Origin: the human T2T-CHM13v2.0 reference genome, Homo sapiens
Length of the DNA: 64,000 bases
Assembly: GCF_009914755.1 (NCBI RefSeq)
Contig: NC_060934.1
Reading direction: 5' to 3' (one strand)
Shown piece after piece: positions 3,079 through 24,503 of the stretch. Numbering within the stretch: the stretch's first letter is position 1; every line of letters starts with the position of its first letter. The notes under the pieces were generated by a model. It saw only the letters and a program-made list of their open reading frames with translations. It did not search any database and was not told where the DNA came from. The position numbers were made by a program, and so were the translations under genes.

Positions 3079-4554
3079 CTACACGCACTCGTCGGGGCAG
3101 CCGTACTGCAGAAGCACGTTGATGCACTCCTGGCTGGAGGCCTGCCGGGCGTAGGTCAGCGCTGTGTTCCCGTGGGCATCTCGGGCCATGACGTCCACCC
3201 CGTACCAGATCAGGAGCTGCTCCAGGACCACATTCCCCTTGCGGCAGGCCAGATGGAGTGCCGTGCAGCCGTCTCCCTCCCCACAGGTCTCGTTCACCTC
3301 CTCACGGGAGCCATGTGCCAGCAGCAGGATGGCTGTCTGCAGGTCCTCATCAGCGGTGGCCCGCAGCAGCTGCTGGCTCAGAGACAGCTCAGTGCAGGGT
3401 AGTGGGGCCAGAAAGAGCTTCTCCTCATATTTGGAATGGATCCAGCGTTCCTTCTCTTCCCTCGTGGACTTTATTGAGGGTTTTGTCTGCCCCTGGCTGC
3501 TCCCTTCCCAGATGCTGTTGGCTAGCTCATTGCCAATAGATGACATAACCTTCCTGAGCTCAACTGGCCAGTCATCCAGCTCCAGAGATCGCACACGGGA
3601 AAGGCGGGTGCCAAGACTGCGGTGGATACCTGAGCATTCAATACACATGAGGACTCCCAAGTTCAAACTGGCCCACTTAGGATTCTGGGTCTCACAGTCC
3701 ACACAGTGGGCGTTCCCACGCATGTTTTGGATCGACTGCAGGGCCATGGCCTCACTCTGGCTGGTCAGCTGGGACTTGCTTTTACTGCTCTCGCATGACT
3801 GCAGGCTGGCCAGGATCTGGCTCTGGATGGCTTGGACCCAGGCATCCCGCTCCTCATACGTCGTGGCTTCAAAGTGCCACGTTTGGCCAGTGGCAGACAC
3901 AATCATAAAGTTGTTGGTGCTTTTCTTCTTTAGGTGTTTCTTTTTATTGGCATGAGGAGAGGGGGGTGGGTTGAGCTTGGGGCTGGTGGTGCTGGAGATA
4001 CTGGGGCTGAAGCATATGGAGTCACCCAGCCCGGTGTCCATGTCCTTGGATAGGCCATTGCTTTTAGAGCTGGAGATGGGTGCACAGGCTGATGTGGCTA
4101 GGGATGGCCACTTTCCTGGGACTTTGATGGTAGATGTCCGAAGGTCAATCTCTTTTTTATGAATATTCTTCATATAATCACCTAAGCTTGAATAATAGGT
4201 GAGCACGCCATTGGAACACAGGGTGACGTATTTCTTTTTCCATGTCTTCAGCCATTTCCCACTTCGCTTTAAGAGCATGCCCTGTTTAATGGGGATGGCT
4301 CTGCCGCTCCCGATGGTGTCAGCATGATTCTCCGGGGCTTTCCTCTCTTTGTCTGGGTCACTCCCTTTCTCAGATGTAAACAGGTTGGACCAGCGCATGG
4401 ACCGCTTGCAAATGGGGGTGGGTGTGTTGGCAGTGGGAGGAACACTGAACTGAGGGTCCTCCTGGCTGGTGCTGGGAGTCGGTGGAATGGAGGAGGAATA
4501 GTTATTTAAACTCCCACCTCCATTTCTTTTCTTCATAATGTGCACGGTGGAAAC
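3079..4554 (-). CDS. AGAP-like exon 8: split PH domain, ArfGAP zinc finger and ankyrin repeats (AGAP1 retrocopy-derived)
   Basis: 1476 nt open to TAG. PH motifs [14 protein letters not shown] and [19 protein letters not shown]; intact CX2CX16CX2CX4R (CVDC...CIECSGIHR); ankyrin [11 protein letters not shown] and [10 protein letters not shown]. Confidence 0.97.
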
Positions 4555-4654
4555 CTGTGTGGAACAGGAGGAGGAATGGCTTCAAAAATTGGGTAGTGGC
4601 TTGCAGGATCCTATAGACAGCTCACAATTACCTTTTAAAAAGATACATTTTCTG

Positions 4655-4960
4655 GGCCAGGCATGGTGGCTCACACCTGTAATCACAGCACTTTGGGAGG
4701 CCAAGGTGGGTGGATCACGAGGTCAGGAGTTCAAGACCATCCTGGCCAACATGGTGAAACCCTGTCTTTACAAAAAAAAAAAAAGAAAAAAAAATTAGCT
4801 GGGCATGGTGGCACATGCCTGTAATTCCAGTTACTCGGGAGGCTGAGGCAGGAGAATTGCTTGAACAGGGACCTGGGAGGCAGAGCCTGCAGTGAGCCAA
4901 GATCGCGCGATTGCACTCCAGCCTGGGCTACAGAAAGAGAGTCCATCAAAAAAAAAAAAA
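4655..4960 (+). mobile_element. AluS-like
   Basis: Full dimer; TSD aaaagatacattttct. Confidence 0.9.
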
Positions 4961-5184
4961 AAGATACATTTTCTGTTGTTTGGATAGTATATTTACTCAT
5001 ACTAGCTCACTAACTAAACAGAGCTGCAGATCAGTTCTTACTCCAGCACATTCTTTTTACAACACTTAAGATGACTAAATGCAACATGAAATGGGGAAGA
5101 TTTAAAAAAAGATGGCTTTGACTTCAGCATGAAACAGATACAAGTGTACGATGAAAATACAACCTCAATAAAAGTGCCACTTAC

Positions 5185-5236
5185 CGCAAATGAGTGTAAC
5201 TGTTCATCAGGTATGCTCAAAGATCTATCTGCATCT
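5185..5236 (-). CDS. AGAP-like exon 7 ([17 protein letters not shown])
   Basis: 52 nt, ttatag| ... |gtaagt. Confidence 0.88.
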
Positions 5237-21474: not shown

Positions 21475-21543
21475 CATCTGTTTGAGAGTTCCTCTGGAAT
21501 ATTGTGCTTGCCTCTGGATTGGCAGAAGGGTTAAACTCCAAAG
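21475..21543 (-). CDS. AGAP-like exon 3, duplicate of exon 2 ([23 protein letters not shown])
   Basis: 69 nt; differs from exon 2 at one base (CCT vs CTT); same splice sites. Confidence 0.9.
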
Positions 21544-23841
21544 CTATATGCATAGAGGAAGAAAAGAAAAAGAGATGCAATCATTGATAAAAATTTATCA
21601 ACTCGTTTATTCGGCTGCTGCATTTAGGCTATTTCACTATCTCTACTTTGATTCTTATCCATTGAAATGAATGTATAGACATAAGATAGAGCCAGGCAAG
21701 ATGGCACATGCTTGTAGTCCCAGCTACTCAGGAGGCTGAGATGGGAAAATCACTTGAACCCAGGTCAGGAAGTTGAGGCCAGCATGAGTAACACAATGAC
21801 ACCCTCCTTTATTTAAAAAAAAAAAAAAAAAAAAAAAAAAGAAGAGGTAAATTTTGGCTTTGAGTTGTGTAAAATCAACTTTGCATAAAATAAATCAAGA
21901 TGGCAGTAAGTTTTAAAAGACAGTCTATTTTATAGGCAAAATATAAGATGTATTCTAGAGTTTTTAAAATTTTTAAAAAGTAAATTCATCATATCTGTCA
22001 CTTCCATTTCATTCTGAGGACACAGAACCTTAGTTCTCTTGAGTAGCTGTCTTCCATAGTCATGTGATATCTCTAAGTTTTCATTTCTTCATTAGCAATA
22101 CATAGGGAGAACATACACAGGCCTTATTTGTATTGGAAAGGGCCAAGTGAGACATACATAAACTGTGTTGTAATCCTAAAGAATGACAATAAAGAGCCAT
22201 TTTTGGGCTCTCATCCAACACTACCCATCTACTAACTGGTGTGTAACATCCATCAGGCTTTCCGAACTTCACCAAGCAGAGTATAAGTTTATACAAGTAC
22301 TTACATGCTTTGTGTATAAAGGTACAATCAATTAATTCACATAATGCATTTGTTTATTCTAAAGCAATCCTTAAATATCTTGAAATGTGAAGATAGTACT
22401 TCCAAGTTACAAAGTCACACTCATAATGAGTCTTAATTATCCTACCTCTTTAAAAATTAAGAGCCCAACCAAAGTTTAAATAGAAGAGCTATAAGACATT
22501 TCCTCTACAGTAATGAAATCTCTGGCATTTAAATGAAACCAATAAGCCAACTGGATTTAATATGTTTATGATGCAATGTTTTCTATTTTGAAAATTTCAG
22601 TTTTTATTCAAGAACCATATTATTACCCAGAATTACTTTTACTTAGATTCATCTCTTTGCAAAATTTTAGAGGCAAACCAACTAATTGTTTTCTGTTTTC
22701 TACCGGCTCCCATCCCCTGCCTCTGCCAACAGTGTAGAGACTAAAAAACTCCAACTCTTTCCTTTTTTTTTTGTGAGACGGAGTCTCGCTCTGTCACCCA
22801 GCCTGGAGTGCATTGGCGTGATCTCTGCTCACTGCAACCTCCACCTCCCAGGTCCAAGCAATTCTCCCGCCTCAGCCTTGTGAGTAGCTGGAACTACAGT
22901 CATGCGCCACTACGCCCAGCTAATTTTTGTATTTTCTTTTTTAGTAGAGACAGCGTTTCACCATGTTGGCCAGGCTGGTCTCGACTCCTGACCTCAGGTG
23001 ATCCGCCTGCCACAGCCTCCCAAAGTGCTGGGATTACAGGCGTGAGCCACCAAGCCCAGCCAAAACTGTAACTTTCTTATCTTTGAACAAGATGCTATTG
23101 TCAGGAGGGGAAGGGACAAAGGGGGAGCCACGGCAACAAACACTCTTACAGGGAAGGTCTGACATTTTAACCTGCAATCTTTATACTACACATTAAAAGT
23201 CTACATTGACGTTTCATGTCTTTTGAAAGTTTTGACCGTGAACCAATCCCCACCTCTCTTTTAGAACAAGGAGGTAAATAAAGTCTGTTAAGTCACCAGA
23301 ATAAATCTGGAGACACATTTTCTGTTAAAGTAAGAATTTTAAAGTAATCAGAGCCTCATAGGTAAACTCCTTTGAGAAACCCCAAACACACACACACAAC
23401 CATTTTTCTGCAGCCCTGGCTGTGACATTTTATACCTTTCACAATTATTTTAAGCACTCTCCTTTTTTCTCTTTCCTTCTGTGTTCAAATTACAGTTAGA
23501 AGAAACTAAGCAGCTTCTATCAAGGTGACTTAAAGCAGCCCATTAAGAATACCATATAGCCTCTCCCGTGGCAACCTCCATTCTGATTTTAAATAAGAAA
23601 TCCCCAAATATTTGAATAGGAACTGTCCTGAGATTTGGCTACTTTAACAAAGGAAACAATTAGGCACTTACCTGGTTCCTTCACTTAGGTACCATCTGGA
23701 TAGGTTCAAAGAAAAATTAAGATGGGTACTGAAAAGTTGGGATATTTGAGTTTTTATTGAGAAAAGGAAGAGAATAGCTCAAAGAAGCCTAAACAAAGTC
23801 CCACAGGATAATAAACAGAGCTACAGACACTGTTGTCTCAC

Positions 23842-23910
23842 CATCTGTTTGAGAGTTCCTCTGGAATATTGTGCTTGCCTCTGGATTGGCAGAAAGGTTA
23901 AACTCCAAAG
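23842..23910 (-). CDS. AGAP-like exon 2 ([23 protein letters not shown])
   Basis: 69 nt, atatag| ... G|gtgaga, phase 1-1. Confidence 0.9.
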
Positions 23911-24279
23911 CTATATGTATAGAGGGAGAAAAGAAAAAGGACGTAATCATTTATAAAAATTTATCAACTCATTTATTCAACTGCTGCTTATTCGACAAGA
24001 GCCATAAATAAATGGTCCCATGCCAGCCTGGGAGAATGAGATGAGAGAGCAAGAACTGGGCGATTGGGAGGGGAGGTGAAAAGAAACTGACTGGACTCGG
24101 TGGGGAAAGACTAAGGGGTGGGAATTCAAGGCAGAGCCAGCTTTTGTTCCTGGCCAGCCCCCGGGAAAGCTGGCTACAAGCAGAAAGGAGCTCGAAGTGT
24201 AGGATGCCTCAAAGGGAACCTTGGGGACAGCAGCAGCCAGAGGCAAACCGAGGGTAGATGGCACCTATCACCTCCTTAC

Positions 24280-24503
24280 CTTCAGGCATCTCCCGGTCAC
24301 GAACCTGGTGCATGTGGAGGTCCTCACCAACTTCAACAGTCACCTCAGCAGGCTGTACAGCAGCAGCCATGGGCGCTCCTGCCATCCTGTCCTCAGCTCC
24401 TGCCTCATAGATCTCAGATTCAGAGGGACACACCGACCCCTGCTGCTGGGTCAAACTCGAGGCTGACGCTAGGGTGCACACGACAGGTCAGTATGTTCCC
24501 CAT
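24280..24503 (-). CDS. AGAP-like exon 1 coding part (MGNILTC...DREMPE), carrying a +1 frameshift
   Basis: ATG at 24503-24501. Reads GAC CCA GCA GCA instead of GAC CAG CAG CAG, giving TGA at 24422-24420. The original frame continues as [56 protein letters not shown]. Donor G|GTAAGG. Confidence 0.92.

What the first reader, a model, noticed from the sequence alone, without database searches (positions are those of the whole stretch)
3079..24503. The AGAP-like gene is a cyclin-Y-like / AGAP1-retrocopy chimera
Seen: exons 1-7 translate to MGNILTC...[41 protein letters not shown]...[13 protein letters not shown]...[29 protein letters not shown]. Known (from memory): this is colinear with the N-terminal half of the cyclin Y family. 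CCNYL1 reads [87 protein letters not shown]. It does not resemble the AGAP1 GTPase-like N-terminus. Exon 8 packs PH-ArfGAP-ANK, multi-exonic in AGAP1, into one exon. Inference: an AGAP1 mRNA retroposed into an intron of a duplicated CCNYL gene (probably CCNYL2-like, which lies near BMS1 on 10q11) just before the cyclin box. The new gene would carry a cyclin-Y-type MGNxxxC lipidation leader, potentially targeting an ArfGAP module to membranes. The family name does not reflect this origin; I cannot tell whether it is already published.
Basis: partly seen in the sequence, partly recalled or inferred. Interest (0 to 1): 0.85.

Follow-up and report, generated by a model that had tools for sequence, protein, structure and literature searches.

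The report
Cyclin-Y / AGAP1-retrocopy chimera, already published

Summary

- **Host half.** Exons 1-7 (window 24544-5185, minus strand) map in order onto a multi-exon cyclin-Y-like locus at C10:43.30-43.34 Mb, presumably CCNYL2. Exons are 78-89% identical in DNA and introns are colinear. Splice sites checked at base level match the CCNYL1 and CCNY loci. Exon 3 and exon 5 peptides each hit only Cyclin-Y among 177,635 PDB sequences.
- **Retrocopy half.** Exon 8 is part of a 5'-truncated AGAP1 retrocopy (window about 4622-1438). Eleven AGAP1 exons spanning 327 kb of chr2 lie here without introns. The ORF carries PH, ArfGAP and ANK domains.
- **Join.** The retrocopy sits in host intron 7. The CCNYL2-like locus keeps the empty site. 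Splicing uses an AG that already exists inside the AGAP1 coding sequence. A later deletion removed the retrocopy tail and the first cyclin-box exon.
- **This copy is dead.** A private 1-bp insertion in exon 1 gives a stop at codon 28.
- **Prior art.** Baertsch et al. 2008 (PMC2584115) described CTGLF1/AGAP4 as a cyclin gene plus a CENTG2 (AGAP1) retrocopy.

Added here: the junction anatomy and a chr9 processed copy of the spliced chimera. Lipid anchoring through the kept MGNILTC leader is untested.

The parts
24280..24544 (-). Exon 1, cyclin-Y-type. ATG at 24503-24501 encodes MGNILTCR. A private 1-bp insertion in the C-run at about 24448-24450 gives a stop at 24422-24420. The donor is in phase 1.
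   Evidence: DNA identity is 84% to the CCNYL2-like locus and 67% to the CCNYL1 locus. The donor GAAG|GTAAGGAGG is shared with the CCNYL1 locus.
23827..23987 (-). A 161-bp intragenic duplication of the exon 3 region. It carries exon 2 (23842-23910, 69 nt, phase 1-1).
   Evidence: It is 93% identical (151 of 162 columns) to 21460-21621. It is absent from the CCNYL2-like locus, where 167 window bases face a 2-base gap.
21475..21543 (-). Exon 3, encoding [22 protein letters not shown].
   Evidence: The only PDB hit is Cyclin-Y 9r2i_D residues 60-81, E 8.6e-4. It matches the CCNYL2-like locus at 43329254-43329183 with 86% identity.
18800..18834 (-). Exon 4 (35 nt).
   Evidence: Splice sites. It matches the CCNYL2-like locus at 43323773-43323742 with 81% identity.
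11169..11269 (-). Exon 5, encoding [33 protein letters not shown].
   Evidence: The only PDB hit is Cyclin-Y residues 100-125, E 4.1e-3. A genome-wide search finds CCNY-family loci and no AGAP1-3 locus. Acceptor and donor sit at the same bases as in the CCNYL2-like, CCNYL1 and CCNY loci.
8548..8583 (-). Exon 6, encoding [12 protein letters not shown].
   Evidence: It matches the CCNYL2-like locus at 43306741-43306706 with 78% identity.
5185..5236 (-). Exon 7, encoding [17 protein letters not shown]. It is the last host exon and ends in phase 0.
   Evidence: CCNYL2-like locus 43304844-43304794, 88% identity.
4624..5184 (-). Remnant of host intron 7. It carries a later antisense Alu (about 4638-4962) flanked by the target-site duplication AGAAAATGTATCTTTTT.
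   Evidence: Window 5167-4980 aligns to the CCNYL2-like locus at 43304150-43303952. The host sequence ends at ...AAAAGGTAATTGT. The CCNYL2-like locus has the uninterrupted site ...AAAAGATAATTGT|TAATAG at 43303917/16.
1438..4623 (-). 5'-truncated AGAP1 retrocopy in sense orientation. Eleven AGAP1 exons (the first partial) occupy 4622-3085, with the stop at 3081-3079. 3'UTR pieces lie at 3073-2740, 2432-2356 and 1745-1438, interrupted by Alu insertions. There is no poly(A) tail.
   Evidence: AGAP1 C2:236287032-236613757, 81-94% identity per exon; 3'UTR.
3041..4554 (-). Exon 8 of the chimera, encoding the PH, ArfGAP and ANK domains. The zinc finger CVDC-x16-CIEC and the following SGIHR arginine are present.
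   Evidence: Pfam matches. The motif spacing (ArfGAP1 Cys22, 25, 42, 45 and Arg50) is from PMC2542466.
4555..4580 (-). 3' splice site of exon 8: CCATTCCTCCTCCTGTTCCACACAG|G. It is recruited from inside the AGAP1 coding sequence, 22 nt upstream of an AGAP1 exon-exon junction.
   Evidence: The AGAP1 exon reads CCATTCCTCCGTCTGTTCCGCGCAG|GTGTCT, encoding SHSSVCSAQ|VSAVH. The frame is kept.
242..1440 (-). The host sequence resumes here (intron 8 of the CCNYL2-like host). The junction with the retrocopy shows TTC microhomology at 1440-1438. Colinearity with the host ends near 242.
   Evidence: Window 242-1443 aligns to 43300547-43302048 at 84-91% identity. No cyclin-box exon lies in the 20 kb further downstream.

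Best explanation
AGAP12P is a dead member of the chr10 AGAP4-like (formerly CTGLF) family. The founder of the family was a chimera.

Shown here:
- A paralog of the CCNYL2-like cyclin-Y gene received an AGAP1 cDNA in its intron 7, in sense orientation. The cDNA was 5'-truncated just after the GTPase-like domain.
- A polypyrimidine tract plus CAG|G already present in the AGAP1 coding sequence serves as the acceptor. Host exon 7 (phase 0) therefore splices in frame to VSTVHIMKK..., followed by PH, ArfGAP and ANK.
- A deletion with TTC microhomology then removed the distal AGAP1 3'UTR and poly(A), the rest of intron 7 and the first cyclin-box exon.
- A 161-bp duplication added a second copy of exon 3.
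- The unit then spread by segmental duplication.

Inferred for intact paralogs: the protein is an ArfGAP whose GTPase-like domain is replaced by about 195 residues of cyclin-Y N-terminus. The only clearly preserved feature of that part is the MGNILTC myristoylation and palmitoylation-type leader. The likely effect is lipid anchoring of the PH-ArfGAP-ANK module to membranes. CDK14/16 activation is unlikely, because the cyclin box and the C-terminal Ser326 region are absent.

For this copy: a 1-bp insertion stops translation at codon 28, so it most likely acts only as a transcribed pseudogene.
For: Host half:
- All 7 exons map in order onto C10:43332004-43304794, and the flanks and introns are colinear at 82-92% identity.
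- Splice sites are identical to the CCNYL1 and CCNY loci where checked.
- Cyclin-Y is the sole PDB hit for exons 3 and 5.
- The chrX CCNYL1-like copy used as a yardstick hits PDB Cyclin-Y at E 2.4e-49 and carries Cyclin_N.

Retrocopy half:
- 11 AGAP1 exons lie contiguous, with AGAP1 3'UTR following.
- AGAP1 is the best parent.

Insertion and deletion:
- The empty site survives in the CCNYL2-like locus at 43303917/16.
- The CCNYL2-like exon 8 (43303044-43302904, start of the Cyclin_N match) has no counterpart in the window.
- The junction lacks poly(A), while AGAP1 and the chr1 retrocopy continue past that point.

Splicing:
- The acceptor motif pre-exists in AGAP1.
- A chr9 processed fragment spans the exon 7|exon 8 junction. 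It shares 21 derived sites with the window, against 7 and 3 for the alternative groupings.

Pseudogene status.

Literature:
- Baertsch 2008, passages read.
- Y-type cyclins carry N-terminal myristoylation and palmitoylation signals needed for membrane localisation (bioRxiv 10.64898/2025.12.15.694124, passages read).
- CDK16 binding needs Ser100 and Ser326 (PMC4613515, passages read).
Against: - No poly(A) tail or target-site duplication survives to prove L1-mediated insertion. The retrocopy call rests on intron loss.
- The name CCNYL2 for C10:43.30-43.34 Mb is inferred from position and recalled coordinates. No annotation of that locus was available.
- The cyclin-Y-derived part shows no purifying constraint against the CCNYL2-like locus: 188 codons, 65% aa identity, dN 0.186 against dS 0.147. 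This weakens any claim that it keeps a function beyond the first seven residues.
- Cys8 of the CC pair is Arg in 8 of 9 AGAP copies.
- No lipidation, expression or GAP-activity data were seen.
- Divergence looks high for a catarrhine-only origin. K is about 0.15 against the CCNYL2-like locus, and dS is 0.31 against AGAP1. The dating is therefore open.
Confidence: 0.93

Rival explanations
1. DNA-level exon shuffling: a segmental duplication fused the 5' half of a CCNYL gene to a genomic piece of AGAP1, with no RNA intermediate.
For: The locus lies in a region rich in segmental duplications. No poly(A) tail or target-site duplication is left at the AGAP1-derived block.
Against: Ten AGAP1 exon-exon junctions, spread over 327 kb of chr2, are precisely intronless in the window. 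The block starts inside an exon and continues into the 3'UTR.
Confidence: 0.02
2. The likeness of exons 1-7 to cyclin Y is chance or low-complexity similarity. On this view the exons were recruited de novo upstream of an AGAP1 retrocopy.
For: Pfam finds nothing in the exon 1 and exon 5 peptides. The 58-residue exon 1 peptide has no PDB hit.
Against: The locus is colinear with the CCNYL2-like locus over about 30 kb, including introns. All seven exons lie in order. Splice sites are shared with the CCNYL1 and CCNY loci. Cyclin-Y is the only PDB hit for two separate exons.
Confidence: 0.01
3. AGAP12P still makes a protein. Translation would restart at a downstream in-frame AUG (for example ...[12 protein letters not shown]...), giving a leaderless and therefore non-lipidated PH-ArfGAP-ANK protein.
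For: After the frameshift the rest of the message is open to the normal stop, and in-frame Met codons lie shortly downstream. The locus is annotated as transcribed (hub table).
Against: The stop at codon 28 lies seven exon junctions upstream of the last exon. By established knowledge this should trigger nonsense-mediated decay. RefSeq calls the locus a pseudogene. No protein evidence was seen.
Confidence: 0.07
4. The retrocopy and the chimera are older than the catarrhine ancestor. On this view the reported absence from marmoset is a loss or an assembly gap.
For: K2P is about 0.15 between the AGAP host and the CCNYL2-like locus (2,898 sites). dS is 0.31 against AGAP1. The chr9 copy's private branch is about 0.05.
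Against: Baertsch 2008 Table 2 scores marmoset as 'n'. PMC11534156 calls the subgroup catarrhine-specific. The chr10 lineage evolves about 1.8 times faster than the dead chr9 copy, at synonymous sites too. Raw distances therefore overstate age.
Confidence: 0.2

Closest known systems
CTGLF1/AGAP4 as described by Baertsch et al. 2008 (BMC Genomics 9:466, PMC2584115)
   Same: It is the same gene family and the same origin story: a cyclin gene that gained PH, ArfGAP and ankyrin domains from a CENTG2 (AGAP1) retrocopy. Table 2 reports it present in rhesus and absent in marmoset.
   Different: The passages read do not name cyclin Y or CCNYL2. They do not describe the lipidation leader, the splice-site origin, the loss of the cyclin-box exon or the exon 2 duplication. 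This window holds the frameshifted copy AGAP12P, not AGAP4. The paper's supplements and figures were not seen.
AGAP1 (CENTG2), chr2
   Same: It is the parent of exon 8. Protein identity is 83% over 478 of 491 residues, with the same PH, ArfGAP and ANK order and the zinc finger and arginine kept.
   Different: The GTPase-like domain is absent, because the cDNA is truncated just after it. The copy is intronless and has a different promoter and N-terminus. dN/dS is about 0.3, and the copy evolves faster than a dead copy.
Cyclin Y family (CCNY, CCNYL1, CCNYL2)
   Same: Exons 1-7, their order and their splice sites are shared. So are the MGNxLTC start and the ASTIF and [12 protein letters not shown] blocks.
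   Different: There is no cyclin box and no C-terminal tail, so Ser326 is absent. The shared part is only 65% identical to the CCNYL2-like locus, with dN at least equal to dS.
Intron-inserted chimeric retrogenes such as owl-monkey TRIM5-CypA (recalled, not checked here)
   Same: A cDNA lands in an intron of a host gene and is spliced to upstream host exons, replacing the host's C-terminal domain.
   Different: Here the acceptor lies inside the retrocopy's own coding sequence. The displaced host exon was later deleted, and the product was then amplified to about 10 copies.

Membership tests
AGAP subfamily (ArfGAP with GTPase domain, ANK repeat and PH domain) | ArfGAP domain with a CX2CX16CX2C zinc finger and the catalytic arginine | tested here: met
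   Pfam ArfGap E 5e-37. CVDC-x16-CIEC-SGIHR is read. The spacing is from PMC2542466.
AGAP subfamily (ArfGAP with GTPase domain, ANK repeat and PH domain) | PH domain and ankyrin repeats flanking the GAP domain | tested here: met
   PH E 1.5e-11, Ank_2 E 8.4e-12.
AGAP subfamily (ArfGAP with GTPase domain, ANK repeat and PH domain) | N-terminal GTPase-like domain | tested here: not met
   The retrocopy starts at AGAP1 ...QQL|SIGPCK, after the GTPase-like domain exons that the chr1 copy still carries. The exon 1 and exon 5 peptides have no Pfam family. No exon 5 hit falls at AGAP1-3.
Cyclin Y family | Conserved N-terminal region with shared exon structure | tested here: met
Cyclin Y family | Cyclin box (Cyclin_N fold) | tested here: not met
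   The first cyclin-box exon of the CCNYL2-like locus (43303044-43302904) is missing. No cyclin exon lies in the window or in the 20 kb downstream. Cyclin_N is found only in the chrX yardstick.
Cyclin Y family | N-terminal Met-Gly myristoylation signal with nearby Cys for palmitoylation | tested here: inconclusive
   MGNILTC is encoded. Cys8 is Arg in 8 of 9 AGAP copies. Lipidation itself cannot be tested with these tools.
Processed retrocopy | Loss of all parental introns | tested here: met
   Ten AGAP1 junctions are intronless.
Processed retrocopy | Poly(A) tail and target-site duplication | tested here: not met
   The 3' junction falls in mid-3'UTR with TTC microhomology and no A-run. AGAP1 and the chr1 copy read on past it. 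This is best explained by a later deletion.
Pseudogene (AGAP12P) | A disabling lesion relative to intact paralogs | tested here: met
   A 1-bp insertion unique among the 9 AGAP exon 1 copies gives a stop at codon 28.

The most novel reading that the evidence does not exclude
In the intact paralogs (AGAP4/5/6/9) the cyclin-Y leader is functional. On this reading the proteins are N-myristoylated and Cys7-palmitoylated, so a catarrhine-specific ArfGAP is anchored to membranes by a borrowed cyclin signal in place of AGAP1's GTPase-like domain. The family is also kept evolving unusually fast: about 1.8 times the rate of its own dead chr9 retrocopy, with dN at least equal to dS in the cyclin-derived part. 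No paper found or 56 links these genes to cyclin Y or tests their lipidation.
Probability: 0.35. Interest if true: 0.45.

Novelty: already known. Interest (0 to 1): 0.22.

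Why it matters
The family name AGAP ("with GTPase domain") misdescribes AGAP4-14, which have a cyclin-Y N-terminus instead. Recent work on the 10q11.22 AGAP duplicons does not mention this: 'cyclin' and 'CCNY' each occur 0 times in PMC11534156. Knowing the true architecture tells anyone studying these copy-number-variable genes what to test, namely lipid anchoring rather than GTP binding. 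It also warns against assuming AGAP1-like regulation. As a discovery it adds only detail to a 2008 report.

Tried and rejected
- **Pfam on exon peptides.** The exon 1 (58 aa) and exon 5 (33 aa) peptides gave 0 families. Pfam has no model for the cyclin-Y N-terminus, so this says nothing either way.
- **PDB search with exon 1.** The 58-residue peptide gave 0 hits.
- **Poly(A) and target-site duplication.** I looked for both at the retrocopy ends and found none.
- **Cyclin-box exons downstream.** None lie in the 20 kb downstream of AGAP12P.
- **First guess about the retrocopy 5' end.** I first thought window 4533-4622 might be an alternative AGAP1 first exon shared with the chr1 copy. I rejected this: it is the ordinary AGAP1 exon at C2:236287032-236287124, and the chr1 copy simply extends further 5'.
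- **Noisy distances.** MAFFT-based K2P distances over the 3-kb loci are unreliable where repeats misalign. For example, the exon 5 region gives 0.237 against the CCNYL2-like locus, while blastn gives about 87% identity there. I used them only for tree shape and rough scale.
- **CCNYL1 locus.** Intron positions for exons 2-4, 6 and 7 against CCNYL1 and CCNY therefore rest on tblastn hit boundaries, not on base-level splice sites.
- **Dating.** Dating across primate genomes was not possible, because no primate assemblies are held.

Full report
**What is in the window**

Joining the eight exons annotated for AGAP12P gives canonical AG/GT at every internal boundary. The exons lie on the minus strand at 24544-24280, 23910-23842, 21543-21475, 18834-18800, 11269-11169, 8583-8548, 5236-5185 and 4554-3041.

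The ATG at 24503 opens [18 protein letters not shown]. An extra C in the run at about 24448-24450 then shifts the frame, and a stop follows at codon 28. The rest of the message is open in another frame, from QQQGSV... in exon 1 to the stop at 3081-3079.

Exon phases are:
- exon 1 ends in phase 1
- exons 2 and 3 are 69 nt, phase 1-1
- exon 4 is 35 nt
- exon 5 is 101 nt
- exon 6 is 36 nt
- exon 7 is 52 nt and ends in phase 0
- exon 8 starts in phase 0

The extra C is private to this copy. The 8 other chr10 AGAP exon 1 copies and 5 CCNY-like loci all lack it. The copy in hand is a frameshifted pseudogene, as RefSeq says.

**Exons 1-7 are cyclin-Y exons**

The 33-residue exon 5 peptide was searched against the whole assembly, giving 19 matches:
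- 10 are AGAP family copies.
- One is a locus at C10:43310838 (78% identity, E 2.4e-8).
- Two more are chr10 pericentromeric loci, and one is on chr19.
- One is at C2:208208158 (E 0.008), taken to be the CCNYL1 locus.
- One is at C10:35545142 (E 0.017), taken to be the CCNY locus.
- One is an intronless copy on chrX.
- No match lies at AGAP1 (C2:236 Mb), AGAP2 (C12:57.7 Mb) or AGAP3 (C7:152.3 Mb).

The gene names for these loci are inferred from position and from my recollection of the reference coordinates. No annotation of them was available.

The chrX copy serves as a yardstick. It reads ...[43 protein letters not shown]...[14 protein letters not shown]...VTLAIYHHIKNRDANRSLDIFDE, followed by a Cyclin_N domain. 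It matches PDB Cyclin-Y (9r2i_D) at E 2.4e-49.

The window's own exon 3 and exon 5 peptides each hit Cyclin-Y and nothing else among 177,635 distinct PDB sequences. Exon 3 matches residues 60-81 at E 8.6e-4, and exon 5 matches residues 100-125 at E 4.1e-3. The first residue of the exon 3 query was printed as M only because the tool reads a first TTG or CTG codon as a start. The 58-residue exon 1 peptide found nothing, and Pfam has no model for this region.

**The host locus**

Window 242-30000 is colinear, in the same orientation, with C10:43300547-43336330. Identity is 82-92% in unique sequence, and the differences are mostly Alu insertions. All seven exons map there in order, from 43332004 to 43304794, at 78-89% DNA identity.

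Splice sites checked at base level:
- The exon 1 donor (GAAG|GTAAGGAGG) coincides with the CCNYL1 locus.
- The exon 5 acceptor (CCCCTTCAG|G) and donor coincide with both the CCNYL1 and CCNY loci.
- For the remaining exons, tblastn hit boundaries agree, but splice sites were not compared base by base.

A BMS1-like exon lies about 330 kb away at C10:43661832.

Trees from two 3-kb regions place the AGAP copies as sister to the CCNYL2-like locus plus the C10:38.22 Mb copy (exon 1 region), or to those two plus the C10:39.05 Mb copy (exon 5 region). The chr19 copy and CCNYL1 fall further out. K2P to the CCNYL2-like locus is about 0.15 over 2,898 sites. The host was therefore a separate paralog, not a recent copy of today's CCNYL2-like locus.

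**Exon 8 is an AGAP1 retrocopy**

The 500-codon open frame carries ArfGap (E 5e-37), PH and ankyrin matches. It keeps the CX2CX16CX2C finger and the arginine four residues after it. The spacing is as given for ArfGAP1 in PMC2542466 (passages read).

In the genome search the frame matches ten separate AGAP1 exons on chr2. Identity to AGAP1 is higher than to AGAP3 or AGAP2. For residues 373-461, for example, it is 88% against 64% and 43%.

At DNA level these exons abut without introns in window 4532-3085, at 81-94% identity. An eleventh exon lies upstream at C2:236287032-236287124 and accounts for window 4630-4538. About 327 kb of AGAP1 is thus compressed into 1.5 kb.

AGAP1 3'UTR follows in three pieces (3073-2740, 2432-2356 and 1745-1438). 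Alus are inserted between them, and about 900 bases just after the stop codon are missing.

Over 478 of 491 residues the copy is 83% identical to AGAP1, with dN 0.092 and dS 0.31.

**How the two halves are joined**

Host intron 7 runs from 5184 to 4624. It carries a later antisense Alu with the target-site duplication AGAAAATGTATCTTTTT. The host sequence ends ...AAAAGGTAATTGT, and AGAP1 sequence starts at about 4622 inside the codons for ...QQL|SIGPCK. The CCNYL2-like locus has the uninterrupted site ...AAAAGATAATTGT|TAATAG at 43303917/16. The insertion therefore happened after the two host lineages split.

The exon 8 acceptor, CCATTCCTCCTCCTGTTCCACACAG|G, is AGAP1 coding sequence. AGAP1 reads CCATTCCTCCGTCTGTTCCGCGCAG|GTGTCT for SHSSVCSAQ|VSAVH. 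The splice site was brought in ready-made, 22 nt before an AGAP1 exon junction, and it keeps the AGAP1 frame.

At the other end the retrocopy stops in mid-3'UTR at 1438, and host sequence resumes with a 3-base overlap (TTC). AGAP1 and an independent chr1 retrocopy both read on past this point, and there is no A-run.

Relative to the CCNYL2-like locus, about 1.87 kb is missing (43303916 to about 43302046). The missing stretch includes the exon at 43303044-43302904, which encodes ...YFKYDPEHKLIFRFVRTLFKAMRLTAEFAIVSLV. That is where the Cyclin_N match begins.

The simplest reading is an insertion into intron 7 followed by a microhomology-mediated deletion. The deletion took the retrocopy tail, the rest of the intron and the first cyclin-box exon. 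This ordering is an inference.

Colinearity with the host ends near window 242. No cyclin-box exon lies in the next 20 kb.

**Independent support for the splice**

A fragment at C9:85800245-85801234 aligns to the spliced mRNA at positions 589-1505, across the exon 7|exon 8 junction. Against unspliced genomic DNA the match stops at the acceptor. It is therefore a processed copy of the chimeric transcript.

At 770 sites shared by four sequences, the grouping (window, chr9) against (AGAP1, chr1 copy) has 21 supporting sites. The alternative groupings have 7 and 3.

Since that split the window lineage has gained 65 changes (43 non-synonymous, 22 synonymous). The chr9 fragment has gained 36 (27 and 9) over the same 840 sites, binomial p = 0.005. 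The chr10 lineage thus evolves about 1.8 times faster than its own dead copy, at synonymous sites too. This points to a higher mutation or gene-conversion input rather than to selection alone.

**Other details**

- Exon 2 lies in a 161-bp duplicate (23827-23987) of the exon 3 region. It is 93% identical and absent from the CCNYL2-like locus. This matches the 23-residue difference between the 663-aa and 686-aa family members listed in PMC2542466.
- Against the CCNYL2-like locus the cyclin-derived part is 65% identical in protein, with dN 0.186 and dS 0.147 over 188 codons. It shows no sign of purifying selection, although MGNILTC is identical in both.
- The eighth residue is Arg in 8 of 9 AGAP copies and Cys in the CCNYL2-like and CCNYL1 loci.

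**Likely function**

The following is inference, not tested here.
- Y-type cyclins carry N-terminal myristoylation and palmitoylation signals needed for plasma-membrane localisation (bioRxiv 10.64898/2025.12.15.694124, passages read).
- Their binding to CDK16 and 14-3-3 needs Ser100 and Ser326 (PMC4613515, passages read).

The chimera keeps the leader and the YSSCSTIF block but lacks the cyclin box and the C-terminal tail. Intact paralogs would most plausibly be lipid-anchored ArfGAPs that do not activate CDKs.

AGAP12P itself stops at codon 28, far upstream of the last exon junction. It is probably only a transcribed pseudogene.

**Prior art and novelty**

Baertsch et al. [quoted passage not shown] They name a mouse cDNA with only a cyclin domain as the ancestral form. 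Table 2 scores the fusion present in orangutan and rhesus and absent in marmoset. The paper's figures and supplements were not seen.

The core claim is therefore already known. My searches found no paper linking these genes by name to cyclin Y:
- AGAP4 with 'cyclin Y': 0 papers.
- 'cyclin Y-like' with AGAP: 1 paper, judged unrelated from its title and abstract.
- CTGLF, CCNYL2, AGAP9 and AGAP12P.
- AGAP4/5/6 with retrocopy terms.
- MRIP2, C10orf21 and AGAP7/8/10.

The 2024 study of the AGAP duplicons does not contain 'cyclin' or 'CCNY', and its two 'retro' hits are 'retrograde'. These searches cover only the open-access library held here.

**Verdict**

The novelty is low. The junction anatomy, the chr9 processed copy and the rate asymmetry are modest additions.

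Noticed in passing
L041, C9:85800245-85801234: A fragment of a processed copy of the spliced chimeric CCNYL-AGAP mRNA (mRNA positions 589-1505). It spans the exon 7|exon 8 junction and shares 21 derived sites with the window copy, against 7 and 3 for the alternative groupings.
   Followed up: yes
window 3082-4554 versus L041 and the AGAP1 exons: The chr10 AGAP lineage has 65 private changes, against 36 in the dead chr9 copy, over 840 sites (p = 0.005). Synonymous sites are elevated too (22 against 9). This suggests a raised mutation or gene-conversion input in the duplicated region.
   Followed up: partly
L040, C1:178942200-178946058: An independent and older AGAP1 retrocopy. It extends further 5' into the GTPase-like-domain exons and further 3' into the UTR than the chr10 copy. 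A smaller AGAP1-like fragment lies at C4:68653854-68654198.
   Followed up: partly
window 23827-23987 and 21460-21621: A 161-bp dispersed intragenic duplication (93% identical) created a second in-frame copy of exon 3. It is absent from the CCNYL2-like locus.
   Followed up: yes
C10:38.22, C10:39.05 and C19:30.47-30.49 Mb (L010, L012, L014, L053-L055): Three further multi-exon CCNYL2-like loci, two near the chr10 centromere and one on chr19. Processed CCNY-family copies also lie on chrX, chr19, chr16 and chr9.
   Followed up: partly
C10:48393379-48394871 (nearest paralog, K2P 0.004-0.006 from the window): The exon 8 match in the closest paralog is split into two pieces at about residue 460. 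This suggests an indel near the C-terminus of that copy.
   Followed up: no
C10:46990457-46990699 (L051): This AGAP copy has an in-frame 21-bp deletion in exon 1.
   Followed up: no
window 52760-52949: This BMS1P7 exon has six other matches on chr10 at 83-99% identity. One, at C10:43661832 (95%), lies about 330 kb from the CCNYL2-like locus.
   Followed up: no
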